A stretch of DNA of 64,000 nucleotides from an uncultured bacterium (GTDB taxonomy: Bacteria > Patescibacteriota > Minisyncoccia > UBA6257 > 2-01-FULL-56-20): NCBI GenBank assembly GCA_963696395.1, contig CAVOJZ010000002.1, positions 431,317 through 495,316 on the forward strand, given 5' to 3'. The notes under the pieces are model-generated. The model saw only the letters and a list, made by a program, of their open reading frames with translations, searched no databases and was not told the DNA's origin. Shown here piece by piece: positions 1-59,057 of this stretch. Each line of letters opens with the position of its first letter. The first letter of the stretch is position 1. The position numbers were made by a program, and so were the translations under genes.

Positions 1-168
1 TTATTGCACGGGGAAAGACCGTCATTGAAATAGGCTCCACGCCCGAAGAAGCCTTAACTAAGCTCTGGCTCGCATCTAATGACAAGCAACGAGAATAGAC
101 ACTCAAAGCGTTAGCGATTATTAGTGATTCTGTGCGTCCCGATCACACAAACAGCTTAACTCTTACTA

Positions 169-639
169 ATGTTTGCAAACAAATACGAGCGAAGATTAGA
201 TGCAGTCATCGATACGATTGATATTTCAGATTACGTGATGCGATTTTTGGATGAGTTGGCCAAGAGTGAGAGTCGCAGGACAACGATAAGGGATGAGAGC
301 GACGCTTTCCGTATCAAGACGTTGATGGATTATCGAGCCAACACGACGCCAGAATCTATGCTTGAGCTATCCAGTCAACCGTATTGGAAGTATCAAAAGG
401 TCTCCTATGTCCGCTCAAATCTTGGGGACAGACGAGGATTTACGTTCTATTTCATATGCGAAAAATGTGGCCGCAACGCTAAACGACTTTACTACCACAC
501 CTATGTTGCCCCGCCGATATGTAGGCGGTGCTTCGGTCTCCCGTATCCGCAATCAACTCGACCCATGAAGAAAATATCTCGCTACCTGCGCAGACACCCT
601 GAAGCGGCGCGGCAGATTAGCGAATCGCTCAGTTACTAG
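169..639 (+). CDS. hypothetical protein with C-terminal CxxC...CxxC zinc-ribbon (island cargo)
   Basis: 156-aa ORF. Motifs FICEKCGRNAKR and PPICRRCFG form two Cys pairs. No recognisable family. Lies in the region upstream of the serine recombinase. Confidence 0.4.
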   Translation: MFANKYERRLDAVIDTIDISDYVMRFLDELAKSESRRTTIRDESDAFRIKTLMDYRANTTPESMLELSSQPYWKYQKVSYVRSNLGDRRGFTFYFICEKCGRNAKRLYYHTYVAPPICRRCFGLPYPQSTRPMKKISRYLRRHPEAARQISESLSY

Positions 640-715
640 CCGACAATTCCTAAGGCCGCCCTCTTAAAGATGCTAAAAGAAGAGGAAGAAACAGATCACG
701 GCTAGGTGCTACAAA

Positions 716-931
716 TCAAAACTGTGCATTGCAAGCACTAAAGCAAGCCTGTTCCTGAGTAAGAGTTTCCGGTGCGCTCGGCGTTTGAGCATCAAATTGG
801 TCAATGCATACGGCGTGGCACGCCGAGACACGCGCTGCTTGCGATTGGTTATTGTTATAGTTCCAACCCATGTAGAGAAAAATAGCAATCACTACCAATG
901 CTATAAGAATCCATGCTTGTCCTTTTGTCAT
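716..931 (-). CDS. small hydrophobic protein (single TM), hypothetical
   Basis: 71-aa ORF with one hydrophobic stretch (AWILIALVVIAIFLYMGW) and six Cys in the remainder. Directly downstream of the 955-1749 gene on the same strand. Confidence 0.3.
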   Translation of the reverse strand: MTKGQAWILIALVVIAIFLYMGWNYNNNQSQAARVSACHAVCIDQFDAQTPSAPETLTQEQACFSACNAQF

Positions 932-954
932 TTCAGTTTCTAATTATGTTCTTG

Positions 955-1749
955 CTATTGAAGGGCACTTAATTGCTCCTGATAAGTAAGCTGTAGCTGT
1001 TGCTCTTGGAGTTGAATCTGTTGAATTTGTGAGTTGGCGTCGTCCGTCGCTTTTTGAATCTGCCCATCCTGCAATTCCACACCTTCAGGAACCTGTTGTA
1101 TCGCCGCAACATTACTGTAGTATTGGGTCTTTATATTGAGAATCTGCTGATTCAGTGCGTTAAGCTGGTTATTATATTGGGTCGTCAGTGTATCGATCTG
1201 ATTTTGTGTTTGTTGTTGCGCGGCGGCGGCTTGCGATTGTTGCTGTTGGTACTGTGTCTGCTGCTGCTGTTGTTGTTGGCTTGGCTGGCAATATGCTCCG
1301 CCGCTTGCCGGACATACGAAATCTTCGCCTGCGGAACATGCCGTGTAGTAAGTGCCATTACACAAAGTGGCATTTGGCGGAGGCGTATTAACAACTGACT
1401 GCCGCTGCGGAGCCGTGGTCGCTTGCGGTTGATTTTGCGATGTCGATACTGGGCTTACAGAAGGGACTACGGAAATCTTCTTTGTAGAAGGCAACACGGA
1501 GGTACGCATTGAAGGAGTCGATGTCGGCGTCACCACCAACGCCTCAGACGATGATGTTGAATTTGCTTGCTGAACGGCAGCCTGAGGAATTGAACTGGTT
1601 TGGATTGTCGCCGTGCTATTTTGGAGCGGCGCAGAAACCAATCCGATAGACGCCATCAGACCGACGAACATTATAACTGTCTTATGGAAAAACGAACCAA
1701 AGAAGTTAAACATTTTAATGTTTTGATCTTTTCCTTGGCCGGAAACCAT
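955..1749 (-). CDS. secreted or membrane-anchored low-complexity protein (Ser/Thr/Pro-rich, poly-Q, coiled-coil C-terminus)
   Basis: N-terminal hydrophobic segment MFNFFGSFFHKTVIMFVGLMASIGLVSAP. This is followed by an S/T/P-rich region, a Cys-containing segment, a QQQQQQQ run and Q/N-rich heptad-like repeats. The real start may be the internal Met at about 1713. Confidence 0.45.
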   Translation of the reverse strand: MVSGQGKDQNIKMFNFFGSFFHKTVIMFVGLMASIGLVSAPLQNSTATIQTSSIPQAAVQQANSTSSSEALVVTPTSTPSMRTSVLPSTKKISVVPSVSPVSTSQNQPQATTAPQRQSVVNTPPPNATLCNGTYYTACSAGEDFVCPASGGAYCQPSQQQQQQQTQYQQQQSQAAAAQQQTQNQIDTLTTQYNNQLNALNQQILNIKTQYYSNVAAIQQVPEGVELQDGQIQKATDDANSQIQQIQLQEQQLQLTYQEQLSALQ

Positions 1750-1835
1750 AAAGCTCCCAGCCAGCGATGCCTTGCGGCACCCATAACCCTTTCGAGTTAT
1801 GACGTTTCCACGCGCTCTGACTAGGAGCTTGATGC

Positions 1836-2222
1836 GTGGAAACGCTTTTCTGCGCCATGCCCCTTACGAGGTTTAGGCGACTTTTATTAAATTATGCTTT
1901 CAGACTAGCACTACAGGTTGCTTTTCTCAAATCCTTGCAAAGAGCTATGATAAGAACCATGTACGTAAACGGAAGTTTTTATTGCCCAAATTGCAAAGGA
2001 TACACTGGCCATTTCACGTCGGATCGCAAAGCTCTGAGATGCGGCAAATGTAAATCCGAATTTGCTCTTGAGAGCGGCGAGGTGGTTTTGGATGGCAAAT
2101 TGGTGGAATGCTTTTCCTTCACGATGAAAGGGACGGTTTACATGTACGGCAAGCCACTTGACCAAAAAGAAATTCTGCCTAATAATAATCGAGAAGGTAA
2201 TTCAGAATTACCTGAGTCTTAA
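1836..2222 (+). CDS. hypothetical zinc-ribbon protein
   Basis: Motifs CPNCKG...CGKCKSE (two CxxC pairs). Followed by the hairpin terminator at 2276-2328. The true start may be an internal Met (MIRTMYVNG...). Confidence 0.4.
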   Translation: METLFCAMPLTRFRRLLLNYAFRLALQVAFLKSLQRAMIRTMYVNGSFYCPNCKGYTGHFTSDRKALRCGKCKSEFALESGEVVLDGKLVECFSFTMKGTVYMYGKPLDQKEILPNNNREGNSELPES

Positions 2223-2275
2223 AATATAATTTGGGTAACGAAGCACTCCGCCTGATATGATCGCCTGAGTGCAAT

Positions 2276-2328
2276 AAAGCCCTTGTCGACGCATGTGAGC
2301 AATCACGCGCCCCGACAAGGGCTTTTTT
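2276..2328 (+). terminator. rho-independent terminator-like hairpin
   Basis: 11-bp stem AAAGCCCTTGTCG / CGACAAGGGCTTT with a long loop, followed by TTTTTT. Confidence 0.45.
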
Positions 2329-2420
2329 CGTTTATCCATTTCAATGGGTGCGCCTTCAAGCCCTTTGCTTGCTGGGCGGGTCTTCACCCATTGAGACCTG
2401 CCAAGCAAAGAGAGGACTTA

Positions 2421-2576
2421 ATGTTATCGCTGGAACAATTGAGGAAGATAGATGAAGGAAATCAGCTCTCCGATCAAGAGCTTCTTGAGTTACGTGATGC
2501 ACTCTATCCAGTCCTTGAAAAAGTCCTCGATAAATACTTCGAAACCCTAGCCAATCCCGATGATTTGCATAGATGA
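2421..2576 (+). CDS. small hypothetical protein (about 52 aa, helical)
   Basis: In-frame ATG inside the 2283-2576 ORF (MLSLEQLRKIDEGNQ...). No family recognised. Confidence 0.25.
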   Translation: MLSLEQLRKIDEGNQLSDQELLELRDALYPVLEKVLDKYFETLANPDDLHR

Positions 2577-2616
2577 GAACATTTGCTATAATGGTATTAA
2601 GCGGTTAATCAATATC

Positions 2617-2778
2617 ATGAACAGAAAAACCATTAGCGAGGTCATGCGGGAGATGGGAAAGCGTGGCGGGATGGCCTCCGCTGAGGCACGGCGTAAAAGC
2701 GGGAAGATGAACGAATGGGCGGCAAATGTCCTTAAGGCGCGGCGAAAAAATAAAAAGATTAAGAAACCGAGACCATGA
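2617..2778 (+). CDS. small basic protein translationally coupled to the serine recombinase (possible excision or directionality factor)
   Basis: MNRKTISEVMREMGKRGG...KARRKNKKIKKPRP, Lys/Arg-rich. Its stop overlaps the recombinase start in an ATGA arrangement at 2775-2778. Confidence 0.35.
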   Translation: MNRKTISEVMREMGKRGGMASAEARRKSGKMNEWAANVLKARRKNKKIKKPRP

Positions 2779-4361
2779 ACCAGACGAAGGCACTAATTTA
2801 CTGTCGCGTCTCGTCGGAGCGACAGAAAACCGAAGGACACGGCCTTGATAGCCAAGAGCAACGATGTCGGCTTTATTGCGAGCAAAAGGGCTATGAAGTC
2901 GAAGGCAAGCCGTTCAGAGATAGCTTTACAGGCGCGGGTGACTTCATGGATCGTCCGGCGATGCGCGAATTATTAGGATATCTCGACAAGCACCCCCACC
3001 GGACTGATTATGTCGTTGTTTTTGATGATCTCAAACGATTTGCACGCGACACCATTTTTCATCTCAAGCTCCGACGGGAATTTAAGGCGCGAGGAGTAAA
3101 GGTTGAGTGTTTGAATTATAAATTCGATGAGACCGAGGAAGGTGAATTTATCGAGACCGTTCTAGCAGCTCAGGGAGAGCTTGAGCGAAAGCAAAATCGC
3201 CGCCAAGTAATTCAAAAACAACGGTCACGACTTGAGCTTGGCTACTGGCCGTTTTGCCCGCCGCCTGGGTTCCGGCACGTTAAAACAGCCGGACACGGCA
3301 AGCTCCTCACCCCTTACGAACCAGAATCATCTCTTATAAGAACTGCATTTGAAGGATTCGCAGTGGATCGGTTTGAATCGCAAAACGATGTTACCCGCTA
3401 CTTAGAAGAAGAAAAGTTTTGCGGCAAAAACAAAATACCCTTCCAGAGGGTGAATCGTCTTTTTATGCGCCTTCCGATCTATGCGGGATTTATCGAATAT
3501 GCGCCGTGGGAGGTTTCGCAACGGCAGGGGCATCATCAACCGCTTATAGATTTAAGAACCTATTATAAGATTTGCGAAAAATTGAACGGGCGCGCACCAA
3601 TACGGACACGAAAAGATATGAGGGAAGATTTTCCGTTGAGGCATACCCTTGTTGTGTGCGGCAAGTGTAGCCGCCAATATACGGCTTCCTATACAACCAA
3701 AAAGAAGGGCTATAAGAAACCATACTATCGTTGCAATAACACCGCCTGCCCTGAACACACCAAGAGCGTTCCGAAAGACCTCATGGAAAAACAGTTTAAA
3801 GCCATTTTACGAGGGATACGGCCGAAACCACTCGTTTTACAGATCAGCGAGGCAATGCTTTATGAACAGTGGCAAGGACGCGTCGCCAAACGTGCCGCAA
3901 ACGAAGGGAAAGAAGCCGTAGAGCTTGCCGGATTGCAAAACGAGATACGGGACACCGCTAAATTGGCGAAGCGGGCAAGTAGTGAGCGTGTCCGCTTAGA
4001 ATACGAAAAACAAATCGAGGAGCTAGCGGCACGAGAGGAAAAGTTGAAAGAAAAAAATGATCCAGCAAAGAAGCCGAAAATTGAGTTTAGAACCGCCTTG
4101 CGGATGGTGTTCGATTACCTAGAAAACCCATATGACAAGTGGGAAAAGGGAGACTTAAGCGACAAAAACTTGGTAATGAACCTCGTTTTTGAGGGTGTGC
4201 TTTTCTATGACCGAGGAATTGGATTTAGAACCGCTCCTTTAGCCCTTCCTTTAAGGGTTTTTGAGCATTTTGCCGTCTCTAAATCTCAGGGTGTGGAGAC
4301 GGGCGGAATCGAACCGCCGTCTAAAGAGGGTGCCAATGAGTCGTCTACGAGCGTAGTTTAA
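2775..4361 (+). CDS. large serine recombinase (resolvase/invertase-type catalytic domain, recombinase domain, zinc ribbon, coiled-coil)
   Basis: N-terminus ALIYCRVSSERQ...GHGLDSQ carries the serine-recombinase catalytic motif. Downstream features are CGKCSRQY...YYRCNNTAC and a coiled-coil. The last ~23 codons read into the 3' end of ssrA. Confidence 0.85.
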   Translation: MNQTKALIYCRVSSERQKTEGHGLDSQEQRCRLYCEQKGYEVEGKPFRDSFTGAGDFMDRPAMRELLGYLDKHPHRTDYVVVFDDLKRFARDTIFHLKLRREFKARGVKVECLNYKFDETEEGEFIETVLAAQGELERKQNRRQVIQKQRSRLELGYWPFCPPPGFRHVKTAGHGKLLTPYEPESSLIRTAFEGFAVDRFESQNDVTRYLEEEKFCGKNKIPFQRVNRLFMRLPIYAGFIEYAPWEVSQRQGHHQPLIDLRTYYKICEKLNGRAPIRTRKDMREDFPLRHTLVVCGKCSRQYTASYTTKKKGYKKPYYRCNNTACPEHTKSVPKDLMEKQFKAILRGIRPKPLVLQISEAMLYEQWQGRVAKRAANEGKEAVELAGLQNEIRDTAKLAKRASSERVRLEYEKQIEELAAREEKLKEKNDPAKKPKIEFRTALRMVFDYLENPYDKWEKGDLSDKNLVMNLVFEGVLFYDRGIGFRTAPLALPLRVFEHFAVSKSQGVETGGIEPPSKEGANESSTSVV

Positions 4362-4601
4362 CCGAAGTTAAGCGGAATGATTCTAATTTCGCATGCGGCG
4401 TAGAATCGTCAGCCACACGCTAGTCTCCTTATATAAGACCGGTATCAGCCGAAGAGACCCCGGCTGGCCGATCCCAGCTTACGCGAAAGCGAAGGCTGGA
4501 ACTGAAACCTTTCGGTTTGCAATTATATTTGATGCGCTGTAACGCACGCGCGTTCGGCCCGCAAACTCATGGACGCTCTTCATCGAAGCCAGTACGTCCC
4601 C
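4294..4601 (-). ncRNA. ssrA: tmRNA (ssrA)
   Basis: The reverse complement starts GGGGACG and ends ...GGCGGTTCGATTCCGCCCGTCTCCA. This gives a 7-bp acceptor stem with a G3:U70 wobble, discriminator A and a T-arm with loop TTCGATT. An internal tag ORF GCA AAC CGA AAG GTT TCA GTT CCA GCC TTC GCT TTC GCG TAA encodes ANRKVSVPAFAFA* (coordinates 4520..4479). An extended -10 TGgTATAAT and -35 GTGACA sit 7-8 nt upstream of the 5' G. Confidence 0.75.
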
Positions 4602-4608
4602 AGGCGGA

Positions 4609-4638
4609 TATTATACCACGCTATTTTTCCTCTGTCAC
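4609..4638 (-). promoter_or_regulatory. sigma70-type promoter of ssrA (extended -10)
   Basis: On the minus strand: GTGACA, a 17-nt spacer, then TGgTATAAT, with 7 nt to the tmRNA 5' GGGG. Confidence 0.5.
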
Positions 4639-5196
4639 CTTCTGCACGTTGGCACGTTTGAGGAGCTCCGCCTGGAACCATTCGGCGAGATCTTTATCGA
4701 GCGCGGGAAGCACGCCTTCGGATTCGCTGTCGCGCGGTGTTTCATCTTCCTGGCCCGCCGTGAGAATGATAATTCTCGAAAGCCCGAGCATCTGAAAATA
4801 AAGATCTCTTTTAATATCCACATCTTGAATCTGGCGATATGGGATAGCTACCTCTTCTTTATTTAAAATCCCTCGTTTGATCTTGAGCGAATCTTCGCCG
4901 AGGCAATATTTGTAATATCGATACGTGAGCCAAACCATAATGAGGGTGAAGGCAAGTACGAAGCCGGTGAGCGCGAGGCACAAATCGGCTGCCAGGAGAA
5001 CGTATGGCGCAAGATTCCCGAGTTGCTTCACAACAAGAAAAGGTTGGCCGGCCAGCACAAAAAGTCCGATGGAAATAATAAAAAGAATGATGGCGGCGTT
5101 AATTTCTTCGATCAAAAACATCCAGAACGTCTTGGGTCCGAGCGTGTGATAAACCTCTTGCGGCACCCCGGGGTGTACGATTGGTCCTTCGTCCAT
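4621..5196 (-). CDS. membrane protein with bacterial PH (bPH_2/YdbT-like) domain
   Basis: Two TM helices followed by YRYYKYCLGEDSLKIKRGILNKEEVAIPYRQIQDVDIKRD...LTAG, the bPH_2 signature. The longer track ORF extending to 5790 overlaps infC, so only the C-terminal 192 aa from Met-199 are called. Confidence 0.6.
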   Translation of the reverse strand: MDEGPIVHPGVPQEVYHTLGPKTFWMFLIEEINAAIILFIISIGLFVLAGQPFLVVKQLGNLAPYVLLAADLCLALTGFVLAFTLIMVWLTYRYYKYCLGEDSLKIKRGILNKEEVAIPYRQIQDVDIKRDLYFQMLGLSRIIILTAGQEDETPRDSESEGVLPALDKDLAEWFQAELLKRANVQKVTEEK

Positions 5197-5253
5197 GCCT
5201 CTATTATAGCAAGGATCGTTGACGTTCGCGCAGTTTGCTTTACAATGTAAGGT

Positions 5254-5760
5254 ATTCTGAAACCCCGAATCAACAACCAAATAACCGCCCCGGAGCTCCG
5301 CGTGATCGGCGAGAAGGGCGAAAATCTTGGCGTCATGCAACGCGCCGACGCCCTCAAGCTTGCGCGCCTCGAGGATGGAGTTGACCTCATCGAGATATCG
5401 GCGAACGCCAAGCCGCCGGTTGCCCGGCTTATGAGCTATGACAAGTTTCGCTATGAGGAGGAAAAACGAATGAAGAAAGAGCGCTTGGCGCAAAAGAGCG
5501 TCGGCCTCAAAACCGTACAAATCAGCGCCCGTGCGGCCCATAACGATCTCATGATCAAGGTGCGCCAGCTTGAAAAGTTTTTTTCGGAAGGTCATCCGGT
5601 TGAAGTGACCATGCGTCTGCGGGGACGCGAAAAGCGGAACAAGGATTGGGCGATGGAGAAACTCCTCGAATTCCTCAAACTCATCCCCGTGGAATATAAG
5701 AAGCTTTCCGAACCGAAATTCCTCGGCAACGGCCCCGCGGTGCAGATCGCAAAGAAATAA
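5254..5760 (+). CDS. infC: translation initiation factor IF-3
   Basis: (I)LKPRINNQITAPELRVIGEKGENLGVM...DYGKFRYEEEK matches the IF-3 N- and C-terminal domains. The frame is open from the ATT at 5254, and ATT is the conserved unusual infC start. The GTG at 5302 would truncate the N-domain. Confidence 0.8.
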   Translation: MLKPRINNQITAPELRVIGEKGENLGVMQRADALKLARLEDGVDLIEISANAKPPVARLMSYDKFRYEEEKRMKKERLAQKSVGLKTVQISARAAHNDLMIKVRQLEKFFSEGHPVEVTMRLRGREKRNKDWAMEKLLEFLKLIPVEYKKLSEPKFLGNGPAVQIAKK

Positions 5761-5815
5761 CCATCTCCGATCGAGCCCATTTGCATTCAAGCCACGCTTG
5801 TATTACACTATCCCC

Positions 5816-5989
5816 ATGTCAACGTCCAAGAGTTTGGGAAAGAGAATACGATTCACCAAGAACGGCAAGATCGTCCGGCGCCGGATGGCCGTGGATCATT
5901 TCCGCACCCGCAAGAGCACCAAAGAAAACCGGAATTCAACCAAAACGCTTTCACTGAATTACCCGATGAAGAAATTGTTAAACTATTAA
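5816..5989 (+). CDS. rpmI: 50S ribosomal protein L35
   Basis: Small basic protein MSTSKSLGKRIRFTKNGKIVRRR.. located between infC and rplT, which is the conserved operon order. Confidence 0.75.
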   Translation: MSTSKSLGKRIRFTKNGKIVRRRMAVDHFRTRKSTKENRNSTKTLSLNYPMKKLLNY

Positions 5990-6001
5990 TTTTGAAACGT
6001 C

Positions 6002-6349
6002 ATGCCGAGAGTCAAACGTGGAACCACTGCAAATAAGCGCCGCGCGAAAGTCCTCAAATACACCAAGGGCTTCCGTTGGGGCCGCAAGTCCAAAGAGCGC
6101 GCCGCAAAAGAAGCATTGCTTCACGCGTGGACGCACGCCTTCCGCGGCCGCAAGGAAAAGAAGCGTGTCTATCGCCAGCTCTGGAATGTAAAGATCAACG
6201 CCGCCGTCCACGAAGCCGGGACCAATTACAGCAAATTTATCGCAGCACTCAAGAAGCATAAAATCATTATCGACCGAAAGATCCTGGCGGACCTCGCCGA
6301 AACGGAACCGGCGGTGTTCAAGGAAATACTTTCAGCGGTCAGCAAATAG
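6002..6349 (+). CDS. rplT: 50S ribosomal protein L20
   Basis: MPRVKRGTTANKRRAKVLKYTKGFRWGRK... is the L20 signature. Confidence 0.9.
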   Translation: MPRVKRGTTANKRRAKVLKYTKGFRWGRKSKERAAKEALLHAWTHAFRGRKEKKRVYRQLWNVKINAAVHEAGTNYSKFIAALKKHKIIIDRKILADLAETEPAVFKEILSAVSK

Positions 6350-6352
6350 AAA

Positions 6353-6380
6353 AAACGAGTCGTGATGGCTCGTTTTTTGT
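6353..6380. terminator. rho-independent terminator after rplT
   Basis: AACGAGTCGTGATGGCTCGTTTTTT. Confidence 0.5.
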
Positions 6381-6391
6381 TTTCGGTTCCG

Positions 6392-6916
6392 TTATTCTTT
6401 TTCTTTTGCCGGCGGCGTTGCTCTCTGCGGATTACGCGGCCGCTGACGGGCGCGAAGGAAATCCCGGGCCTGCTTCAATACCTTTCGTGTGTCGCCATAT
6501 TTTTTCCCGATAACATTCAGTGCGTCGTTATAGAGGAACCAAGCATAGCCGCTATGTTCCCGGGGAGTGAGCTTTACATCCGCCTTGTGGGTTTCGGCGA
6601 GGAATAAAATGACCGTGTCGTAAATATGCTCATTCCCGATCCGGAACGAAAAGCGTTCATACGCGCGAAAGTTCGGCGCAATGCGAAGTTCGGATTTCTT
6701 GATGCCCGTCTCCTCTTCGAGCTCCCGCAGGGCCGCATCTATGCTTCGCTCCCCCGGCTTGAAGTGTCCCTTGGGAAAATTCCAGTAATTACCGCGGCGA
6801 TAAAGGAGTAGGAATTTTATCCCGTCCGTTGTTTTGCGATATACCACAAATCCGGCCACAACCTGTTTTTTGGTTGGTATCCTTTTGGATTCATCAATTT
6901 CGGGCATTGGAGTCAT
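6392..6916 (-). CDS. NUDIX hydrolase
   Basis: Nudix box GHFKPGERSIDAALRELEEETGI. Confidence 0.8.
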   Translation of the reverse strand: MTPMPEIDESKRIPTKKQVVAGFVVYRKTTDGIKFLLLYRRGNYWNFPKGHFKPGERSIDAALRELEEETGIKKSELRIAPNFRAYERFSFRIGNEHIYDTVILFLAETHKADVKLTPREHSGYAWFLYNDALNVIGKKYGDTRKVLKQARDFLRARQRPRNPQRATPPAKEKE

Positions 6917-6935
6917 TGGGAAATTTTAGCACTGT

Positions 6936-8663
6936 TTAGTGTTTTAAGCACTTCACCATCTTTTCCATAGGCCACGCGTTAATCACGTCTTTCTTTTCCG
7001 CCCAACCGCGCCGGGCCTGGGCGATGCCCCATTCCAAAAGGTCGAAGTGAATCGCTGCGTGCGCATCGGAATCCACCGAAAGCAGAACGCCGGCCTCAAC
7101 ACATTTCCGAACGTGTTCATCTTTGAGGTCCGACCGTTCCGGAAACGAATTTATTTCCATGACCGTTTTTGTTTTTTTGGCGAGCGCTATGACCGCGTCC
7201 ATATCAAGATCAATCGCCGGACGGCGGTTGATGATACGCCCCGTCGGGTGGAATAAAATATCAACATTTGGGTTATTGATCGCACGCAAAACGCGGGCGG
7301 TCTGCTCGGCGCGCGGGAGGTTGAAATAAGAATGGACGGAAACGCCGACCACATCCAGTTTTGATAAAATCGAATCCGACAAATCGAGTGTGCCTTCCTT
7401 CAAAATGTCGCACTCGGTTCCCTTCAATACTTTAATTTTCCCGGCCAGTTTTTTGTTCACGCGATCAATCTCGTTCATCTGCTGCGCCAATCGCTTCTCG
7501 TCCAGGCCGTGCGTCATCGCAAGCCGTTTTGTGTGATCCGTGATCACGATATATTTTAGTCCGCGTTCGTAAGCGGCGAGGGCCATTGCCTCTATTGAAG
7601 CCGAACCGTCTGTCCAATCGGTTTGCGTCTGGAGATCCCCCTGGAGATCCTTATAGCCGATAATCTTCGGCAGTCGATGTGCCCGTGCGGCTTCAATCTC
7701 GCCAGTATTTTCACGGAGCTCGGGCTCAACATAATCCATGCCGAACTTTGCATAGAGTTCCTCCTCGGATGCTCCGGCAATCTGCTTTGTCCCCTTAAAA
7801 AGCCCGTATTCATTAAGTTTCCAGCCTTTATTGAGGGCAGCCTGCCGCATGGCAACGTTGTGGTCTTTCGATCCGGTGAAATAGTTGAGTGCCGCACCGT
7901 AGGATTTTTCGGGAACCACACGAAGGTCAACATTGATGCCCGCTCGAAGCTTAACGGATGACTTGGTCGGACCTTCCGCAATCACGTTCACAACCTCCGG
8001 CATTTTGACGAACATTTTCATAACAGCCGTTGCGTCGTTCGAAACGGCGAGGATATCCACGTCGCCGATCGTTTCCTTGCGCCGACGCGCCGATCCCGCT
8101 GGAGTCACTTTTTTTACGCCGGCAACTTTTTCCACGCGCTCCGTGATTTTTCTGATGAGCGGCATCATGTATCCAAGAATAAAGCGCTTGCCGGACTGTT
8201 CGGCGAATCCGATATTTTTCAAAATTTTCTCTTCGCTTTTTTTGCCGAACCCTTCGAGCTTCGCGATCTTCCCGGCCTTCGCCGCTTTCTCGAGGTCGGC
8301 TAAATTTTTTACTCCAAGTTCCTGATATAACCGCTGTATTGATTTCGGTCCGAGGCCTTCCACTTTAGCCAATTGATCCAACCGAACCGGCGTGCTCTTT
8401 TTTAATTCTTCATAAAATTTTATTTTCCCGGTTTTGATAAGCTCTTCTATCGAAGAAGCGATGGATGCACCGACGCCGGGAATCTCTTTCAATCCTTTGA
8501 GTCCGCCCGTGCGATACGTTTCCGCGACTTCGGTTTCGAGTGCGTCGATGGTCTGCGCGGCTTTTTCGTACGCGCGCGGTTTGAACGGCACTTTTTGCAT
8601 GTCGAGATATTCCCCTATTTGCCGAAGTATTTCCGCAACAGCCGAATTTGAGGTATCTGCCAT
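6936..8663 (-). CDS. polX: DNA polymerase X family protein with C-terminal PHP domain
   Basis: HhH motifs (GVGPKSIQRLYQELG), a PolX palm region and a C-terminal PHP region (YIVITDHT...HSYFN...). Confidence 0.8.
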   Translation of the reverse strand: MADTSNSAVAEILRQIGEYLDMQKVPFKPRAYEKAAQTIDALETEVAETYRTGGLKGLKEIPGVGASIASSIEELIKTGKIKFYEELKKSTPVRLDQLAKVEGLGPKSIQRLYQELGVKNLADLEKAAKAGKIAKLEGFGKKSEEKILKNIGFAEQSGKRFILGYMMPLIRKITERVEKVAGVKKVTPAGSARRRKETIGDVDILAVSNDATAVMKMFVKMPEVVNVIAEGPTKSSVKLRAGINVDLRVVPEKSYGAALNYFTGSKDHNVAMRQAALNKGWKLNEYGLFKGTKQIAGASEEELYAKFGMDYVEPELRENTGEIEAARAHRLPKIIGYKDLQGDLQTQTDWTDGSASIEAMALAAYERGLKYIVITDHTKRLAMTHGLDEKRLAQQMNEIDRVNKKLAGKIKVLKGTECDILKEGTLDLSDSILSKLDVVGVSVHSYFNLPRAEQTARVLRAINNPNVDILFHPTGRIINRRPAIDLDMDAVIALAKKTKTVMEINSFPERSDLKDEHVRKCVEAGVLLSVDSDAHAAIHFDLLEWGIAQARRGWAEKKDVINAWPMEKMVKCLKH

Positions 8664-8689
8664 ACCTCTATATTACCAGAGAAAACGCA

Positions 8690-9388
8690 CTAAACATCAA
8701 GGTCGGCGGGGTTGCGATCGGCGAGGAGAACCGCTTTCTGTGTTGATTTTGGAAGAATGAGGTCGGGAACCGAGATAAGAACGAACGCGGCTATCAAGGC
8801 GAGAATTCCGGCAATGACGAAGACGGCAGTGAACCCGAACGCTTCCGCAATTATGCCGGAAAGAAGCCCCGTGATGCCGGCCGCGACGCCGGTCGCCGCG
8901 CTGTCGAGCGACCAGTCGAACGATATCCTCTCCTTGTCGAGATGCCTCGAAAAAATCGTCGGCCAGGCCGCGAAATACATTGCAAAAGCAATGGCGTGGA
9001 TCGCATGGATGACATAAAGTTCCCAAATATTCGTCACCCAGCTCATGGCAATCACCGATATGCCGACAAGAAGAATACCGCCTACGAGCGCCATGAAATC
9101 ATCTTTTTCACCGGGAGTTCGATCAAGATAATTTGCGATTGGGATTTGGACAAGCGAGCGCACAATCCAATAGATCGCCGCGGCAATGCCGACGGTGATA
9201 AGAGTCGCACCCGCGACGTGCTGAATGATGAATATGGAGAATATCGGATCAATGAAACCCCAGCCTGCGAGAAGGAAAAAGTCGGAAATAATAAAATATT
9301 TTACGAGCCGCCCGACTTTGATATCAATGTTAACTTTGATTTTCATATTATGGTTTTGGTACGAAATCGAATTTTTCGCCGGCGGCAA
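8690..9388 (-). CDS. 6-TM membrane protein resembling one half of an MFS transporter
   Basis: Six hydrophobic helices with an LDRTPGEKDD loop (MFS-like DRxGRR motif). Its 5' end overlaps the clp 3' end by about 40 nt. Confidence 0.4.
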   Translation of the reverse strand: MPPAKNSISYQNHNMKIKVNIDIKVGRLVKYFIISDFFLLAGWGFIDPIFSIFIIQHVAGATLITVGIAAAIYWIVRSLVQIPIANYLDRTPGEKDDFMALVGGILLVGISVIAMSWVTNIWELYVIHAIHAIAFAMYFAAWPTIFSRHLDKERISFDWSLDSAATGVAAGITGLLSGIIAEAFGFTAVFVIAGILALIAAFVLISVPDLILPKSTQKAVLLADRNPADLDV

Positions 9389-11870
9389 TGAGCGTGACCT
9401 TATTTCCTTTTTTTATTTTCTTCGAAAGCAAAGCTTCCGAAAGCGGCGCACGAATCCGCTCATCAATCACACGGCGCAACGGGCGGGCGCCGAACGCCGG
9501 GTCGTAACCGAGCTTTGCGACGAGCGCGACAGCCGCCGGATCAAAATCCAGGAATATCCCCTGCTCTTTCACGCGCTCTGCAAGTTCGTGCAGATTAAAC
9601 TCGGCGATCGTCCGAAGGTCGTCGGGCATAAGATTTTTAAACACGATGGTTTTCGTGAAACGATTGAGAAGCTCCGGTTTGAAGATATCAACGAGCCGTT
9701 TTTTTATGTATTCTTCAATATCGCTCATTGATTCCCCTTTCGAAAGAGCCTCGTTAATGATGTCCGAATGGGCATTTGAAGTTGCGATAATGATGGTGTT
9801 TGTAAAATCAACCGTGCGCCCCACGCTGTCGGTGAGACGACCATCGTCAAGCACCTGCAAAAACAGATTTAAAATGTCCGGATACGCCTTCTCAAATTCA
9901 TCGAGGAGAATCAGACTGTATGGTTTTTCGAGTACCGCATCGGTTAGTGCGCCGTGGGTTGATCCATCGGGAGCGCCGATAAACCTTACAAAAGAAGCTT
10001 TATCTTGGTATTCGGTCATGTCGAACCGTGTCATCATTTTTTCGGACCCGAACTGAATGCCCGCGAGAATTTTCGCGAGTTCCGTTTTGCCGACGCCGGT
10101 TGGCCCCACAAAGAGAAAGCTGGCAATCGGGCCGCCCTTGCGGATTAATCCGCTGCGATATTCACGAAGTGCCTGCGCGACCGCGCTTACGGCTTCCTCC
10201 TGATCCACGAGGCGCTCATGGATGATTTTTTCCATATTAAGCAGTCGCTCCGCCTCGTCGCCTTCGGCTTCGTGAAGCGGAATATGAAGCTTAGCTTCGG
10301 CAACCGCCGTGACGCGATCCGGCCCGAGAGCTTTCTCACCGCGTGCTTCCGCCTGGACAATCGAACTCTTTAAAAGCTCTTCGGCGCTCGACGGCAGAAA
10401 CTTTTCGTGAAAATACTTTTTCGCGAGAACGACAGCGCGCTTCACGGCGCCGAAACTCACCGTAATGTCATATTCTTTTTCGAGAATGAGGCTCTCGTAG
10501 GTTAATATTTTTTCCGCATCCTCTTCGTTCACTTCCTGCACGCGGATAATTTCGAATGCGCCAACAAAGTCGCTGCGCGGTTCAATCGCCTGCTTAAATT
10601 CTTTCGGATACGTCGAACCGACGACCGGGAACTCGTTATTCATGATGATCGGCATCAATGCATCCGCCGCGGAAAGATAGGCCGTGCCGGATGTCTTCAC
10701 AAGATTGTGAATGTCGGGGATGGCAAGGATAACATTGCCCGCCATGTAAATCTCATCGACGATTTTTTTGAGGCGTGCATTTAATTCGTCCGGAGGAGCA
10801 CCGGCAACCAACCCTTGGATATCGAGAGATACCAATCGCTTGTCGAATAAATTCTTCGGAACATCGTCTTTCGTGAGCATGAATGCCAGGTGCTGAATGA
10901 TGGTCTCTTTGCCGATGCCCGCTTCACCTACGAGGATCGCGTTCGGGTTTGCCGGACGGCCAAGCGTTTCCACAAGCCGCTCGTATTCCTCCTCGTGGCC
11001 GATCATAAAACCAATCTGGGTCTCGCGGGCGAGATCCGTAAAATCGGTTGCATAGCGGTCAAGTGTGGGAGTCGGTCGCGACGTCCATGCGCGATTCATG
11101 ATCCGATGCCGTATCACACGGTGCGCATCGAGAACAAACCCTCCAAGACTGAGCGGCAGCCCACCGAACCGCCGCCGGCTGGAAGCGGAACTGAAAATGA
11201 GGGCGCGTTCGAGATCGCCGGCATCAATCGAGAAAAGCTGAAAGAGCCGATCAAGATCTTCGTTGTGCATCGTTGCAAGCCCGGAAAAAAGATCCTGCGG
11301 TGCAACAAAGTCATGACCGGAATCGAGAGCAGCCTTGAAGGCCGCGGCGGCAAGCAATTCTGCCTGATTAATTTTTTCTTCTTTGTTCGCCGAACCAGCC
11401 GCATTTGGTTGGGACAAAAGATCGTCAAGTTTCGCTTTAAATTCTTTGGGCTTCACATCGAGCCGCGTTAATCCTTCTTCTATCTCCGGCAATTCCAGAA
11501 GCCGCTGGGCAACTTCAAGAAAGAATGACCGCTTGCCGATAACGCTCCGATCCATTGCCCGCCCGATGACGGAAAATGCCTGCGGCCTGAATGCCGATGC
11601 GATATTCGCTTTTCCGTTTTGCGGAAACTCGGAAATCGGCACGTCACCTTCTCCACGATGGATCCAGCGGTCAAGTAAATAAAGGGAAATGAATAAGCCG
11701 AGATAATAAAAAACGCGGATGTCGGAGATGAGAAATGTCACCGCCGCAGCCACAAGCACGAGATTTGCAACGTAGCTAATAACACGGACCAGAATTCTGC
11801 CCGCGACCGTCATGCGCAGGCGCGGTTCGTCGTATCGCAATTCGAGCGGGCTAGAGGTTTCGTGCGGCAT
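9348..11870 (-). CDS. Clp/Hsp100-family AAA+ ATPase (ClpC/ClpB-like) with N-terminal transmembrane helices and degenerate first nucleotide-binding domain
   Basis: Two N-terminal TM helices, then Clp_N-like repeats. NBD1 Walker A reads GEAGIGKE (Thr replaced by Glu) and Walker B reads ILAIPDIH instead of IDEIH. NBD2 is canonical (GPTGVGKTELAK, sensor and arginine finger present). Confidence 0.8.
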   Translation of the reverse strand: MPHETSSPLELRYDEPRLRMTVAGRILVRVISYVANLVLVAAAVTFLISDIRVFYYLGLFISLYLLDRWIHRGEGDVPISEFPQNGKANIASAFRPQAFSVIGRAMDRSVIGKRSFFLEVAQRLLELPEIEEGLTRLDVKPKEFKAKLDDLLSQPNAAGSANKEEKINQAELLAAAAFKAALDSGHDFVAPQDLFSGLATMHNEDLDRLFQLFSIDAGDLERALIFSSASSRRRFGGLPLSLGGFVLDAHRVIRHRIMNRAWTSRPTPTLDRYATDFTDLARETQIGFMIGHEEEYERLVETLGRPANPNAILVGEAGIGKETIIQHLAFMLTKDDVPKNLFDKRLVSLDIQGLVAGAPPDELNARLKKIVDEIYMAGNVILAIPDIHNLVKTSGTAYLSAADALMPIIMNNEFPVVGSTYPKEFKQAIEPRSDFVGAFEIIRVQEVNEEDAEKILTYESLILEKEYDITVSFGAVKRAVVLAKKYFHEKFLPSSAEELLKSSIVQAEARGEKALGPDRVTAVAEAKLHIPLHEAEGDEAERLLNMEKIIHERLVDQEEAVSAVAQALREYRSGLIRKGGPIASFLFVGPTGVGKTELAKILAGIQFGSEKMMTRFDMTEYQDKASFVRFIGAPDGSTHGALTDAVLEKPYSLILLDEFEKAYPDILNLFLQVLDDGRLTDSVGRTVDFTNTIIIATSNAHSDIINEALSKGESMSDIEEYIKKRLVDIFKPELLNRFTKTIVFKNLMPDDLRTIAEFNLHELAERVKEQGIFLDFDPAAVALVAKLGYDPAFGARPLRRVIDERIRAPLSEALLSKKIKKGNKVTLIAAGEKFDFVPKP

Positions 11871-12198
11871 AGAAAATTATTACGGCCGGGATGACGAGCC
11901 AAAGCAGATAAATGACGGCGAATATGAGCGCGATGGCAAGGTAAATAACCGACCCGATAATGATCCTTCCCGTCCGGAAAACGATCCCCAGAATCCTCCC
12001 GATCACGGAATAATCCCTGTAGAGCGGCTCAAAAAAATGCCGCAGCGTGATTTTTACGGCAAACGTCCGGTCGGCCGATTCGAGCGCTGAAATAAAGACG
12101 TGGGCAAAACGGCGGGAACCGTCAACGTACCAATGATGAAAAAAATCGAAAAAACGGTAGAAAAATCGTTGCAGAAGATACACAAACGCGAAGTCCAT
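11851..12198 (-). CDS. small membrane protein, hypothetical
   Basis: 115 aa with two to three hydrophobic helices. Overlaps the clp start by 20 nt. Confidence 0.35.
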   Translation of the reverse strand: MDFAFVYLLQRFFYRFFDFFHHWYVDGSRRFAHVFISALESADRTFAVKITLRHFFEPLYRDYSVIGRILGIVFRTGRIIIGSVIYLAIALIFAVIYLLWLVIPAVIIFYAARNL

Positions 12199-16199: not shown

Positions 16200-16213
16200 G
16201 ATTACCCGTCTTG

Positions 16214-16285
16214 TGCCCCCGCGAGGAATTGAACCTCGATCTTCTCCTTCGGAGGGAGATGTCCTATCCGTTGAACTACGAGGGC
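16214..16285 (-). tRNA. tRNA-Arg (anticodon CCG)
   Basis: The reverse complement GCCCTCGTAGTTCAACGGATAGGACATCTCCCTCCGAAGGAGAAGATCGAGGTTCAATTCCTCGCGGGGGCA folds as a cloverleaf. Acceptor is GCCCTCG/CGGGGGC and the anticodon stem is TCTCC/GGAGA with loop CT-CCG-AA. The T-arm is CGAGG-TTCAATT-CCTCG. CCA is not encoded. Confidence 0.75.
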
Positions 16286-36866: not shown

Positions 36867-37009
36867 GGCTGGGTATTAGTAGTAGTATTTAGATTATATA
36901 AGAAACTTATTTTTATTAAGACTATTAGACACTGCGTTGTGGGGATAAAAATTTATTTCTTAATAATTTCCTGATATAGATCTGAATTTTTCAACCGAGA
37001 ACCTGTGGA
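36867..37009. promoter_or_regulatory. candidate oriC unwinding region (dnaA-dnaN intergenic)
   Basis: AT-rich sequence with TAG TAG TAG trinucleotide repeats, plus DnaA-box-like TGTGGGGATAA (36938-36948) and TGTGGATCA (37004-37012). Confidence 0.45.
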
Positions 37010-58219: not shown

Positions 58220-58256
58220 AATGCTAAAGATATCCTAAAAGTCTAGAATCGGCAAA

Positions 58257-58549: not shown

Positions 58550-58558
58550 ATATTAAAA

Positions 58559-58948: not shown

Positions 58949-59057
58949 AAAATCCTTGACAGAACTCCCCGCGCTGACTTATAGTGATACTTACGAGCCG
59001 CTTCAAAGCGGCTTTAACTTTACCTGAATAAAAATTTAATAAAAACTTAATAAAAAA

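What the first reader, a model, noticed from the sequence alone, without database searches (positions are those of the whole stretch)
4294..4638. Unannotated tmRNA (ssrA) with its own promoter, overlapped by the 3' end of a serine recombinase gene
The minus-strand sequence has every hallmark of tmRNA: 5' GGGGACG paired with 3' CGTCTCC (G3:U70), discriminator A, a T-arm GGCGG-TTCGATT-CCGCC, and an internal tag ORF ANRKVSVPAFAFA-stop with a hydrophobic C-terminus. An extended -10 and -35 are placed exactly at the 5' end. The recombinase ORF reads 68 nt into the tRNA-like 3' domain. This is the usual signature of an element integrated at ssrA.
Basis: seen in the sequence. Interest (0 to 1): 0.7.

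Follow-up and report, generated by a model that had tools for sequence, protein, structure and literature searches.

The report
Serine-recombinase element inserted at tmRNA gene
A genuine tmRNA gene of a tiny-genome (Parcubacteria-type) bacterium carries a 6.2-kb mobile element at its very last bases. The element's serine recombinase gene contains its own attachment site, so insertion replaces the enzyme's conserved tail with antisense-tmRNA sequence.

Summary
ARAGORN and Rfam both call a tmRNA on the minus strand at 4293-4601 (118.7 bits against a gathering score of 47), with the tag ANRKVSVPAFAFA. A near-consensus extended -10 promoter ends 8 nt upstream of it. A 528-aa large serine recombinase ORF (2775-4361) runs 68 nt into the tmRNA 3' end.

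The interpretation, an element integrated at ssrA, is supported and made more precise.
- The other end of the element lies 1.9 kb left of the window, on a 100%-identical overlapping contig. It carries the orphaned, conserved C-terminal coding tail of the recombinase.
- attL and attR share only TGTGGA, which is TCCACA at the acceptor end of the tmRNA.
- attP therefore lies inside the recombinase ORF. Excision would rebuild a 549-aa protein.
- Three relatives with that intact tail sit on circular 4.4-12.3 kb contigs.
- Related genomes with the same upstream genes have an unoccupied tmRNA followed by a terminator.

The same overlap with a tRNA or tmRNA gene holds in 63 of 80 homologous loci, from Patescibacteria to Alphaproteobacteria.

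The closest precedent is the Dehalococcoides ssrA island integrase DsiB. Phage Mx8 is the tyrosine-integrase analogue. I rate this a new variant of a known kind. LOOT RNA turns out to be a recurrent component of these elements.

The parts
4293..4601 (-). tmRNA gene (ssrA). It is host-encoded and left intact by the insertion.
   Evidence: ARAGORN. Rfam RF00023 at 118.7 bits over the full-length model. Covariation in 11 relatives, with 35 of 70 pairs compensatory.
4479..4520 (-). Tag reading frame ANRKVSVPAFAFA plus stop codon.
   Evidence: ARAGORN places the coding part at positions 82-123 of the gene. Related tags ANSNVAAPRAFAFA, ANKTAVPAFAFAA and DNTRVAAPSFAFA occur in relatives. The frame stays aligned across relatives.
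4610..4638 (-). Sigma-70-type promoter of ssrA: GTGACA, 17 nt, TG-n-TATAAT. The -35 hexamer lies in the last codons of the upstream bPH-domain gene.
   Evidence: Consensus scan, 11 of 12 positions plus the extended -10 TG. The position is read from the sequence. This is inferred, not shown by transcript data.
2775..4361 (+). Large serine recombinase, integrated (hybrid) form, 528 aa. Codons up to about 4297 belong to the element. The last 21 codons plus the stop are antisense tmRNA.
   Evidence: Pfam Resolvase, Recombinase and Zn_ribbon_recom. PHROG 95, integrase. More than 1600 homologues. Foldseek matches to Bxb1, PhiC31 and A118 integrases for the model of homologue P0012.
4292..4297 (.). 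attL core TGTGGA (TCCACA on the tmRNA strand: U70-C71-C72, discriminator A73, C74, then A). It is identical at attR. The crossover must lie within it.
   Evidence: Comparison of the window junction with L001 794-799 and with attP of the circular relative L002. GTGGA is shared by attL and attR in the window element and in all 12 other loci where both junctions were reconstructed.
4298..4361 (+). Host-encoded replacement tail of the recombinase (TGGIEPPSKEGANESSTSVV), read from the antisense of the tmRNA acceptor stem and T-arm.
   Evidence: Translation. Equivalent tails vary freely in length among relatives, with overlaps of 12-381 nt, so no selection on them is apparent.
1..4297 (.). The part of the integrated element inside the window. 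The element is 6,226 bp from core to core and continues 1,933 bp beyond window position 1, to attR at L001 794-799.
   Evidence: L001 matches window 1-1779 at 100% identity and extends 2,728 nt to the left. The orphan tail at L001 795-923 matches the C-terminus of P0012, E 1.6e-14. G+C is 0.454 against 0.496 for the host.
1766..1879 (-). LOOT RNA (RF03000), carried by the element.
   Evidence: 86.1 bits against a gathering score of 46.4. The same RNA occurs in 11 related loci: L002-L005, L007, L019, L023, L025, L027, L084 and L128.
2617..2778 (+). Small basic ORF (MNRKTISEVMREMGKRGG...) whose stop overlaps the recombinase start codon. It is a candidate regulator or directionality factor.
   Evidence: ORF list. 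A homologue sits at the same position in L004, at 6852-7004. Weak hit to PHROG 2412. The function is inferred.
2283..2576 (+). Small acidic ORF with the conserved motif LS.E.L...LSD.EL...R.AL.P...KVLD.YF. The true start is probably internal.
   Evidence: Similar ORFs lie upstream of the recombinase in L004, L002 and L127. Function unknown.
1836..2222 (+). Zinc-ribbon protein of the element backbone.
   Evidence: Sub-threshold Pfam zinc-ribbon hits. A counterpart is present in L004 at 6232-6531.
955..1749 (-). Ser/Thr/Gln-rich protein with a hydrophobic N-terminal segment, possibly exported. It belongs to the element backbone.
   Evidence: ORF translation. A counterpart with the same N-terminus is present in L004 at 4854-5996. 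No family match.
169..639 (+). 156-aa Cys-rich protein of the element backbone.
   Evidence: The exact protein is also on contig L001. A homologue is present in L004 at 3868-4353. No family match.
4621..5200 (-). Host gene for a bacterial PH-domain membrane protein, immediately upstream of ssrA. Its start is uncertain. It serves as the synteny anchor.
   Evidence: Pfam bPH_2. The block bPH-IF3 is 80.5% identical in L092, where the ssrA site is unoccupied.

Best explanation
The feature is a functional, host-encoded tmRNA gene with its own promoter. A 6.2-kb integrative element is inserted at its last bases, in a Parcubacteria-type bacterium with a genome of roughly 0.9 Mb.

The element encodes a large serine recombinase whose attachment site attP lies inside its own coding sequence, about 40 codons before the natural stop codon. 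Recombination took place between attP and an attB centred on TCCAC(A) at the acceptor end of the tmRNA. It left the whole tmRNA intact and placed the recombinase gene convergent to it. The reading frame now continues into antisense tmRNA for 21 codons. The natural C-terminal coding tail (VDMVQNSWNALESFIFDWGERL...) was carried to the far end of the element, at attR.

Excision would rebuild a 549-aa enzyme on a circular molecule.

Shown here: both junctions, the shared core, the orphan tail, circular relatives with the intact gene, unoccupied sites in related genomes, and the same architecture across the protein family.

Inferred: the conserved tail is needed by the circular-form enzyme, most plausibly for integration. 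On that view the tail exchange works as a built-in switch of activity or direction, possibly together with the two small ORFs upstream of the recombinase.
For: - tmRNA.
- Recombinase domains.
- Orphan tail at L001 795-923, 70% identical to the C-terminus of the circular-form homologue P0012 (E 1.6e-14), on a contig that matches window 1-1779 at 100%.
- Shared core TGTGGA and the reconstructed attP and attB.
- GTGGA core at attL and attR in the window element and in all 12 other loci where both junctions were reconstructed, often with the displaced host terminator beside attR.
- 63 of 80 homologous genome loci have a convergent tRNA or tmRNA gene overlapped by the end of the recombinase ORF.
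- Orphan tails lie roughly 3-8 kb upstream of the junction in about 20 loci.
- Intact-tail homologues sit on circular contigs: L002 (8.5 kb), L130 (4.5 kb) and L128 (12.4 kb, with Prim-Pol).
- Relatives with the same bPH-IF3 genes upstream have an unoccupied ssrA followed by terminator hairpins. L092 has a tmRNA 89.6% identical to this one.
- Tail motif W-N-Q-[LI]-E-S-[YWF]-[IV]-F-[ED]: W in 21 of 22 tails, N in 22 of 22. Leu and Glu codons vary synonymously, and Ser is encoded by both TCN and AGY codons.
- AlphaFold2 predicts a disordered linker across the attP core, followed by a helix.
Against: - No read-level evidence shows that this particular copy excises. Circular forms were seen only for relatives with 46-63% protein identity.
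- The left end of the element lies outside the window. It rests on a short contig from a public assembly, which I assume comes from the same organism because it is 100% identical over 1,779 nt.
- The crossover dinucleotide could not be placed. A scan for dyad symmetry in the att sites was flat.
- Pooled pN/pS for the tail is only 0.53, with synonymous sites near saturation. Part of the tail's conservation could therefore reflect DNA-level constraint from the attP arm.
- The tail helix has only moderate model confidence (pLDDT 53-77), and its contacts were not examined.
- The functional role of the tail exchange is untested.
Confidence: 0.85

Rival explanations
1. The overlap is an accident of convergent genes. 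On this view the recombinase really ends before the tmRNA, attP lies downstream of its stop codon, and the ORF merely reads on because no stop codon occurs until 4359-4361.
For: The hybrid tails of relatives differ freely in length and sequence, with overlaps of 12-381 nt. McMurdie et al. thought it unlikely that the ~70 bp of ssrA overlapped by dsiB encode a functional part of the protein.
Against: In the circular relatives the ORF crosses the core and continues for about 30-40 codons into a conserved motif. The same motif is preserved as an orphan, in frame with the core, at the far end of about 20 integrated elements, including this one. The junction falls at the same codon pair (V-D/E, which is GTGGA) in every case.
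Confidence: 0.04
2. The element is a fixed remnant that can no longer move. On this view integration truncated the recombinase, so the hybrid protein is inactive and the island is now a stable part of the chromosome.
For: No circular or empty-site sequence was found for this exact element. The closest relatives (L003 and L004, 76% identity) are also integrated at ssrA. No recognised replication or transfer genes are present in this copy.
Against: The 528-aa ORF is intact with all its domains. The 43-codon orphan tail is open and 70% identical to a circular relative. Occupancy varies among congeners. Related elements occur as circles. Two loci, L004 and L012, each carry two orphan tails, which suggests repeated integration.
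Confidence: 0.15
3. The conserved 'tail' is conserved as DNA rather than as protein. On this view it is the P' arm of attP, bound by the recombinase, and its translation is irrelevant.
For: 26 nt (TGGAACGCCTTGGAATCGTTCATTTT) are identical between L001 and L002 although the proteins are only 63% identical overall. TGGAAC is nearly invariant.
Against: The conserved block reaches about 51 nt from the start of the core, beyond the roughly 25-bp half-site typical of serine integrase attP sites (general knowledge of Bxb1, PhiC31 and A118). Leu, Glu and Ser positions keep the amino acid while the codon changes, including switches between TCN and AGY for Ser. The frame is always open down to a stop codon.
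Confidence: 0.12

Closest known systems
Dehalococcoides ssrA-specific genomic islands and their integrase DsiB (McMurdie et al. 2011, PMC3146451)
   Same: A large serine recombinase of about 540 aa sits beside ssrA, convergent to it. Its ORF always runs across attL and about 70 bp into ssrA. Islands occur in tandem. The authors speculated that the gene might be complete only on the circular form.
   Different: In Dehalococcoides there is a 20-bp direct repeat and the insertion point is in the T-loop. Here the core is 5-6 bp at the acceptor end. DsiB comes with a second small serine recombinase (DsiA) and RecF-, ParB- and Mom-like genes, none of which is present here. No conserved swapped tail and no circular form was reported there. 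Sequence relatedness to DsiB could not be tested with the tools available.
Myxococcus phage Mx8 integrase IntP/IntX, and the SSV-type archaeal integrases
   Same: attP lies inside the integrase gene. Mx8 integration creates a gene with a new 3' end. According to the review PMC6070905 this modifies the integrase's specificity rather than inactivating it. The Islander paper notes that the Mx8 and SSV integrases extend across attP.
   Different: Those are tyrosine recombinases, with an unrelated fold and chemistry and longer identity segments. Here the enzyme is a serine recombinase and the shared core is 5-6 bp.
Canonical large serine integrases (Bxb1, PhiC31, A118, TP901-1)
   Same: The same domain order (catalytic domain, recombinase domain, zinc ribbon with a coiled coil) and full-length structural matches. 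A short core at the crossover is expected for this enzyme class.
   Different: By sequence these are distant relatives: tblastn matches in the phage and plasmid collections reach at most 28% identity over the N-terminal 56%, and only the catalytic and recombinase domains match PDB sequences. From general knowledge, the model enzymes target protein-coding or intergenic sites, keep attP outside the gene, and need a separate directionality factor. This family has an extra C-terminal region of about 100 aa, and it targets the 3' ends of tRNA and tmRNA genes.
[quoted passage not shown]
   Same: The target is the 3' part of a tRNA or tmRNA gene, the gene stays functional, and the island is delimited by the target gene and a distal junction.
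   Different: Those islands carry a replacement 3' fragment of the target gene, which leaves a duplicated fragment at the far end. Here no fragment of the tmRNA gene is duplicated: the 25-nt tmRNA 3' end occurs only once in the window, L001 gives only chance 8-9-nt matches to the tmRNA, and only the 6-bp core is shared. A search for that signature would therefore miss this element.

Membership tests
tmRNA (RF00023) | Covariance-model score above the curated threshold, over the full-length model | tested here: met
   118.7 bits against a gathering score of 47, model positions 1-374 of 374. ARAGORN agrees.
tmRNA (RF00023) | tRNA-Ala-like acceptor stem with G3:U70, a T-arm, and an internal tag frame ending in hydrophobic residues | tested here: met
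   Read from the sequence. Tag ANRKVSVPAFAFA. The G3:U70 pair is invariant and pairs 4-6 covary in 11 relatives.
tmRNA (RF00023) | Pseudoknots PK1-PK4 | not tested
   Only nested helices were scored. The gene is short (309 nt), so some pseudoknots may be reduced.
Large serine recombinase (serine integrase) | N-terminal Resolvase catalytic domain, followed by the Recombinase domain and a zinc ribbon with a coiled-coil insert | tested here: met
   PF00239 at 1.9e-24, PF07508 at 2e-4 and PF13408 at 8.8e-7, all above their cut-offs. The model of homologue P0012 shows long helices at 354-430 and matches Bxb1, PhiC31 and A118 integrases.
Large serine recombinase (serine integrase) | Short identity at the crossover, with no long direct repeats at the element ends | tested here: met
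   A 6-bp shared core, TGTGGA. It is 5 bp across the family.
Large serine recombinase (serine integrase) | Catalysis of attP x attB recombination | not testable with these tools
   Inferred from the junction structure, the circular relatives and the empty sites.
Dehalococcoides ssrA-GI / DsiB system | Serine recombinase ORF overlapping attL and the 3' end of ssrA | tested here: met
   68-nt overlap.
Dehalococcoides ssrA-GI / DsiB system | [quoted passage not shown] | tested here: not met
   No second copy of the tmRNA 3' end was found in the window with up to 3 mismatches, and L001 gave only chance 8-9-nt matches to the tmRNA. The core is 6 bp at the acceptor end.
Dehalococcoides ssrA-GI / DsiB system | Integration module with a second small serine recombinase (DsiA) plus RecF-, ParB- and Mom-like genes | tested here: not met
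   None of the eight other element ORFs scanned against Pfam hits Resolvase, ParB or a methylase. PHROGs scans of the same ORFs add nothing of that kind.
Dehalococcoides ssrA-GI / DsiB system | Sequence homology to DsiB (ACZ62382) closer than to other serine integrases | not testable with these tools
Islands with attP inside the integrase gene (Mx8 / SSV type) | Integration changes the 3' end of the integrase gene, and the displaced 3' fragment lies at the other end of the element | tested here: met
   Orphan tail at L001 795-923. The rebuilt ORF is 549 aa.
Islands with attP inside the integrase gene (Mx8 / SSV type) | Tyrosine recombinase chemistry | tested here: not met
   The enzyme is a serine recombinase. 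This is therefore an analogy in mechanism, not family membership.

The most novel reading that the evidence does not exclude
A large and so far undescribed clade of large serine recombinases is specialised on the 3' terminal bases of tRNA and tmRNA genes. More than 1600 homologues were found, in Patescibacteria, Alphaproteobacteria and Gammaproteobacteria. All of them keep attP inside their own ORF. Integration therefore reversibly exchanges a conserved C-terminal helix for meaningless antisense-tRNA sequence.

The novel reading is that this exchange is a self-contained directionality switch. The full-length enzyme on the circle would integrate. The tail-less enzyme in the chromosome would be silent or competent only for excision. 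This would replace or supplement a separate directionality factor. The element-borne LOOT RNA and read-through from the strong ssrA promoter would add antisense control.
Probability: 0.3. Interest if true: 0.8.

Novelty: new variant of a known kind. Interest (0 to 1): 0.6.

Why it matters
- It corrects a textbook-level generalisation. The Islander paper (2014) states that serine integrases are not known to target tRNA or tmRNA genes. Here a whole family does so, including members in cultured Alphaproteobacteria.
- It explains why such islands escape methods that look for a duplicated fragment of the target gene: only 5-6 bp are shared between the two ends.
- It turns a speculation made for Dehalococcoides DsiB in 2011, that the gene might be complete only on the circle, into a directly testable case. 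The att sites, both protein forms and a conserved tail motif are now defined.
- If the tail exchange controls direction, it would be a compact, factor-free reversible integrase design, of interest for genome engineering.
- It gives the orphan LOOT RNA a genetic home: small integrative and episomal elements of Patescibacteria.
- It adds a class of 4-12 kb mobile elements to a phylum whose mobile DNA is poorly known.

Tried and rejected
- **Second copy of the tmRNA 3' end in the window.** I looked for one as the usual island signature. None was found with up to 3 mismatches, and no informative direct repeat turned up in 1-12000.
- **Orphan recombinase tail inside the window.** Only chance matches were found. 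The tail lies outside the window, on L001.
- **Exact-protein look-ups.** The recombinase itself is not on record. The look-up of ribosomal protein L20 returned only a 2-kb contig, so no extra flank came from it.
- **An empty site with the same downstream flank.** The 202-aa host gene beside attR has no match in any fetched locus. The evidence for unoccupied sites therefore rests on upstream synteny alone.
- **Dyad symmetry of the reconstructed attP and attB, to place the crossover dinucleotide.** The profile was flat, 0.15-0.35 against a background near 0.25.
- **pN/pS of the tail.** The value was 0.53 with synonymous sites near saturation, so it is weak on its own.
- **Phage and plasmid collections.** Only distant serine integrases matched, at most 28% identity over the N-terminal half.
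- **Literature on LOOT.** The only hit in the discovery paper's main text was an author surname in the reference list, and its supplements are not held.
- **Alignment of the small ORFs upstream of the recombinase.** Across five elements the automatic alignment was poor because the start codons are uncertain. Conservation was visible only by eye and in L004.
- **The idea that the recombinase simply reads through by accident.** Considered and rejected; see the rival explanations.
Full report
**1. The observation**

Both independent detectors find a tmRNA gene on the minus strand. ARAGORN places it at 4293-4601 with the tag peptide ANRKVSVPAFAFA*. Rfam RF00023 matches 4291-4601 over the whole model (1-374) at 118.7 bits, against a gathering score of 47 (E 9e-46).

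I aligned this tmRNA with ten related ones from genomes and metagenomes. In that alignment 35 of 70 predicted pairs keep pairing through changes on both sides, including acceptor-stem pairs 4-6. The tag frame ending in ...AFAFA or ...AYAFA is conserved.

The promoter GTGACA-17-TG-n-TATAAT matches 11 of 12 positions and lies at 4638-4610. It ends 8 nt before the mature 5' G. This is a consensus match in the right place, not proof of function. The -35 hexamer lies in the last codons of the upstream bPH-domain gene.

The ORF 2775-4361 (+) encodes a 528-aa protein with the Resolvase, Recombinase and zinc-ribbon domains of a large serine recombinase. It overlaps the tmRNA from 4294 to 4361, which is 68 nt. 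'Unannotated' cannot be assessed, because no annotation came with the window.

**2. What the overlap means**

A homology search returned more than 1600 relatives. One is an identical protein on a 914-kb contig.

The C-termini of the best 120 fall into two kinds. Most look like antisense translations of tRNA T-arms, for example VEMGGIEPP... and VDPTGLEPATPSLQMRCSTR. Thirteen of them, each on a contig of 12.4 kb or less, end instead in a conserved motif V[DE]..KSWNQLE.[YWF][IV]F[ED]. This suggested that the attachment site attP lies inside the gene, and that the two kinds are the integrated and the free forms.

The window contains no copy of that motif. A public contig, L001, is 100% identical to window 1-1779 and extends 2,728 nt further left. 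It carries the motif at 795-923 as VDMVQNSWNALESFIFDWGERLQGRELAYKTLNEPHLISHRED. This is 70% identical to the C-terminus of the free-form homologue P0012 (E 1.6e-14).

The two junctions share only TGTGGA:
- attL: ...CAGGGTGTGGAGACGGGCGG...
- attR: ...CGGCTATGTGGACATGGTGC...
- attP of a relative...CAGGGTGTGGACGTAGTGAA....

On the tmRNA strand the core reads TCCACA. That is U70-C71-C72, the discriminator A73, C74 and one more base. The tmRNA is therefore entirely host-encoded and unchanged. The element measures 6,226 bp from core to core and has 45.4% G+C, against 49.6% for the rest of the window. Joining its ends rebuilds a 549-aa recombinase.

**3. Independent support**

(a) Circular relatives. 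Three contigs that carry intact-tail homologues have terminal overlaps typical of circular assemblies. These are L002 (8,509 nt, 30-nt overlap), L130 (4,468 nt, 30-nt overlap) and L128 (12,376 nt, 55-nt overlap). L128 also encodes a Prim-Pol/AAA_25 replicase and ParB.

(b) Unoccupied sites. A scan of metagenome contigs with the 26-nt tmRNA 3' end found relatives with the same upstream genes. In L092 the tmRNA is 89.6% identical and the bPH-IF3 block 80.5% identical over 1.76 kb. L101, L112, L116 and L099 share the upstream genes too, and L124, which begins only 51 nt upstream of its tmRNA, is also unoccupied. In all of these the tmRNA is followed by hairpin and T-run terminators and not by a recombinase. 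The downstream host gene of this genome was not found in any of them, so no perfectly matching empty site is available.

(c) Generality. I fetched 80 homologous loci from species-representative genomes. In 63 of them ARAGORN finds a convergent tRNA or tmRNA gene whose 3' end is overlapped by the recombinase ORF. Most of the rest still have T-arm-like tails.
- In Patescibacteria the targets are tmRNA and tRNA-Ala.
- In Alphaproteobacteria, Gammaproteobacteria and other non-patescibacterial members the targets include tRNA-Ala, Met, Arg, Leu, Tyr, Ser, Thr, Lys and Phe. Cultured strains of Roseovarius, Stappia, Jannaschia and Rhizobium are among them.

(d) Distal ends. Orphan tails lie roughly 3-8 kb upstream of the junction in about 20 patescibacterial loci, and two loci have two of them. 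I reconstructed both junctions in 12 further loci. In all of them, as in the window element, attL and attR share GTGGA, and attR is often preceded by the displaced host terminator. GTGGA is the complement of TCCAC, the alanine-type acceptor end that tRNA-Ala and tmRNA have in common. This explains why the patescibacterial members alternate between those two targets.

**4. Is the tail a protein feature?**

Across 22 tails, W is present in 21, N in 22, an aromatic residue at position 14 in all 22, and I or V at position 15 in all 22. Leu and Glu codons vary synonymously. Ser at position 13 is encoded by both TCN and AGY codons. That pattern argues for selection on the peptide, even while the tail is detached from the gene.

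The pooled pN/pS is 0.53 with synonymous sites near saturation, so this number is weak on its own. Some DNA-level constraint from the attP arm cannot be excluded.

AlphaFold2 on the free-form homologue gives a confident serine integrase body (mean pLDDT 87.6). A disordered linker spans 506-515, across the codons of the attP core. It is followed by a helix at 510-539 of moderate confidence. Foldseek matches full-length Bxb1, PhiC31, A118 and other serine integrase structures.

By contrast, the replacement tails read from antisense tRNA vary freely in length, with overlaps of 12-381 nt. They look unselected.

**5. How it most likely works**

Shown: a serine recombinase element integrated by a crossover within TCCAC(A) at the end of ssrA. 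Integration splits the recombinase gene about 40 codons before its natural stop codon.

Inferred:
- The full-length enzyme made from the circular form carries out integration.
- The chromosomal copy makes a protein lacking the native tail. This protein is either less active, which would stabilise the insertion, or is the form used for excision. In either case it may act together with two small conserved ORFs just upstream. One is acidic, with an LSD.EL motif (2283-2576). The other is basic, and its stop codon overlaps the recombinase start codon (about 2617-2778).
- Integration also removes the ssrA terminator. Transcription from the strong ssrA promoter may therefore run antisense into the recombinase gene. 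This is speculation.

Phage Mx8 is the published parallel among tyrosine integrases. According to a review, Mx8 integration creates a new 3' end of int that modifies the integrase's specificity rather than inactivating it.

**6. Comparison with what is known**

The Islander paper states that only tyrosine integrases are known to target tRNA and tmRNA genes. The exception I found is the family of ssrA islands in Dehalococcoides. [quoted passage not shown] Those authors speculated that dsiB might be fully functional only on the circular element.

The present element differs from those islands in four ways:
- It has a 5-6 bp core at the acceptor end, not a 20-bp repeat with insertion in the T-loop.
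- It has no second small recombinase and no RecF/ParB/Mom module.
- It has a demonstrable conserved tail.
- Circular forms of its relatives exist.

Whether DsiB belongs to the same clade could not be tested.

Sequenced phages and plasmids contain no close relative; the best matches reach 28% identity over the N-terminal half. Searches of the held literature found no description of such a family in Patescibacteria. That is absence from a limited library, not proof of novelty. Large island catalogues such as TIGER may already contain these elements without comment.

**7. The element itself**

The backbone is shared with the 76%-identical relative L004. In order it comprises:
- a 156-aa Cys-rich protein;
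- a small membrane protein;
- a Ser/Thr/Gln-rich protein with a hydrophobic N-terminal segment, possibly exported;
- LOOT RNA;
- a zinc-ribbon protein;
- the two small ORFs;
- the recombinase.

The distal cargo differs between elements. In this element it is a Schlafen AlbA_2/HATPase_c_4 protein with a PHROG 'DNA helicase' match. L002 carries DUF3800 and a sub-threshold TIR-like protein. L004 carries an ORF pair, one of them with an XRE-type helix-turn-helix look, which I read by eye as a possible toxin-antitoxin pair. No capsid, terminase or conjugation gene was recognised. I would call it a small integrative element with an episomal form, whose transfer route is unknown.

**8. Verdict**

It is a new variant of a known kind rather than something categorically new, because the DsiB and Mx8 precedents exist. 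Its interest is moderate to high, for four reasons: the architecture holds across a whole family, the tail exchange can be tested directly, such elements are invisible to methods that rely on duplicated target-gene fragments, and LOOT RNA gains a genetic context.

Noticed in passing
window 1766-1879 (-); also L002 510-627, L003 6371-6491, L004 6045-6181, L005 6519-6635, L027 6507-6627, L025 4892-5013, L007 4460-4572, L023 5833-5954, L019 5444-5577, L128 4858-4978, L084 455-573: LOOT RNA (RF03000), an RNA of unknown function, is carried by this element and was found in 11 related loci. In most it lies 0.4-1 kb upstream of the recombinase gene. Two of the loci are circular contigs, one of them a 12.4-kb contig with a Prim-Pol gene. 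LOOT looks like a backbone RNA of these patescibacterial elements. It was not found at the gathering score in about 14 other related loci.
   Followed up: partly
L004 1152 and 2125; L012 2647 and 3482: Two loci each carry two orphan recombinase tails upstream of one integrated recombinase. In L012 one tail has a G-for-D change and a stop codon. This suggests tandem or successive integrations with decay of the older element, as described for the Dehalococcoides ssrA islands.
   Followed up: partly
L128 (NCBI contig JAWVHA010009090.1, 12,376 nt, 55-nt terminal overlap): An apparently circular element carries a free-form recombinase of this family together with a Prim-Pol/AAA_25 replicase, ParB, a protein kinase and LOOT RNA. 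The related contig L129 carries a second large serine recombinase next to ParB. The family therefore also sits on self-replicating episomes.
   Followed up: partly
L011 8871-9118 (+): A group I intron (RF00028, 75.9 bits) lies about 300 nt from the tRNA-Ala gene targeted by the recombinase in a Paceibacterota genome. It is probably within an rRNA gene of the operon.
   Followed up: no
metagenome loci L084-L125: The 26-nt sequence GGCGGTTCGATTCCGCCCGTCTCCAC is shared exactly by this tmRNA and by other genes in unrelated organisms. Judging by eye from their 3' flanks, many of these look like tRNA-Ala genes in rRNA operon spacers. The right half of the recombinase target therefore appears widely available across bacteria.
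   Followed up: no
L109, L113, L118: More distant recombinases, with C-terminal regions such as ...AARLFEKFVVENSPEV and ...AARVFEEFVESNSDDV, also read into the same 26-nt tRNA/tmRNA 3' end. This extends the architecture beyond the closest clade.
   Followed up: no
window 58001-59000 and 36001-37000: Two 1-kb stretches have markedly low G+C content, 0.333 and 0.415, against about 0.50 for the window. They may be other foreign or unusual segments.
   Followed up: no
window 16213-16285 (-): A tRNA-Arg(CCG) gene, the only other tRNA-type gene in the window. No second copy of the recombinase is present anywhere in the window.
   Followed up: partly
window 4181-4194 and 4246-4268 (+): Inside the recombinase ORF, the conserved codons for LPLRVFE form a small hairpin followed by a T-run (CCCTTCCTTTAAGGGTTTTTGAG). 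GGTTTTTGAG is also conserved as DNA across the reconstructed attP sites. It is unclear whether this reflects protein constraint, an outer motif of the att site, or an attenuator.
   Followed up: no
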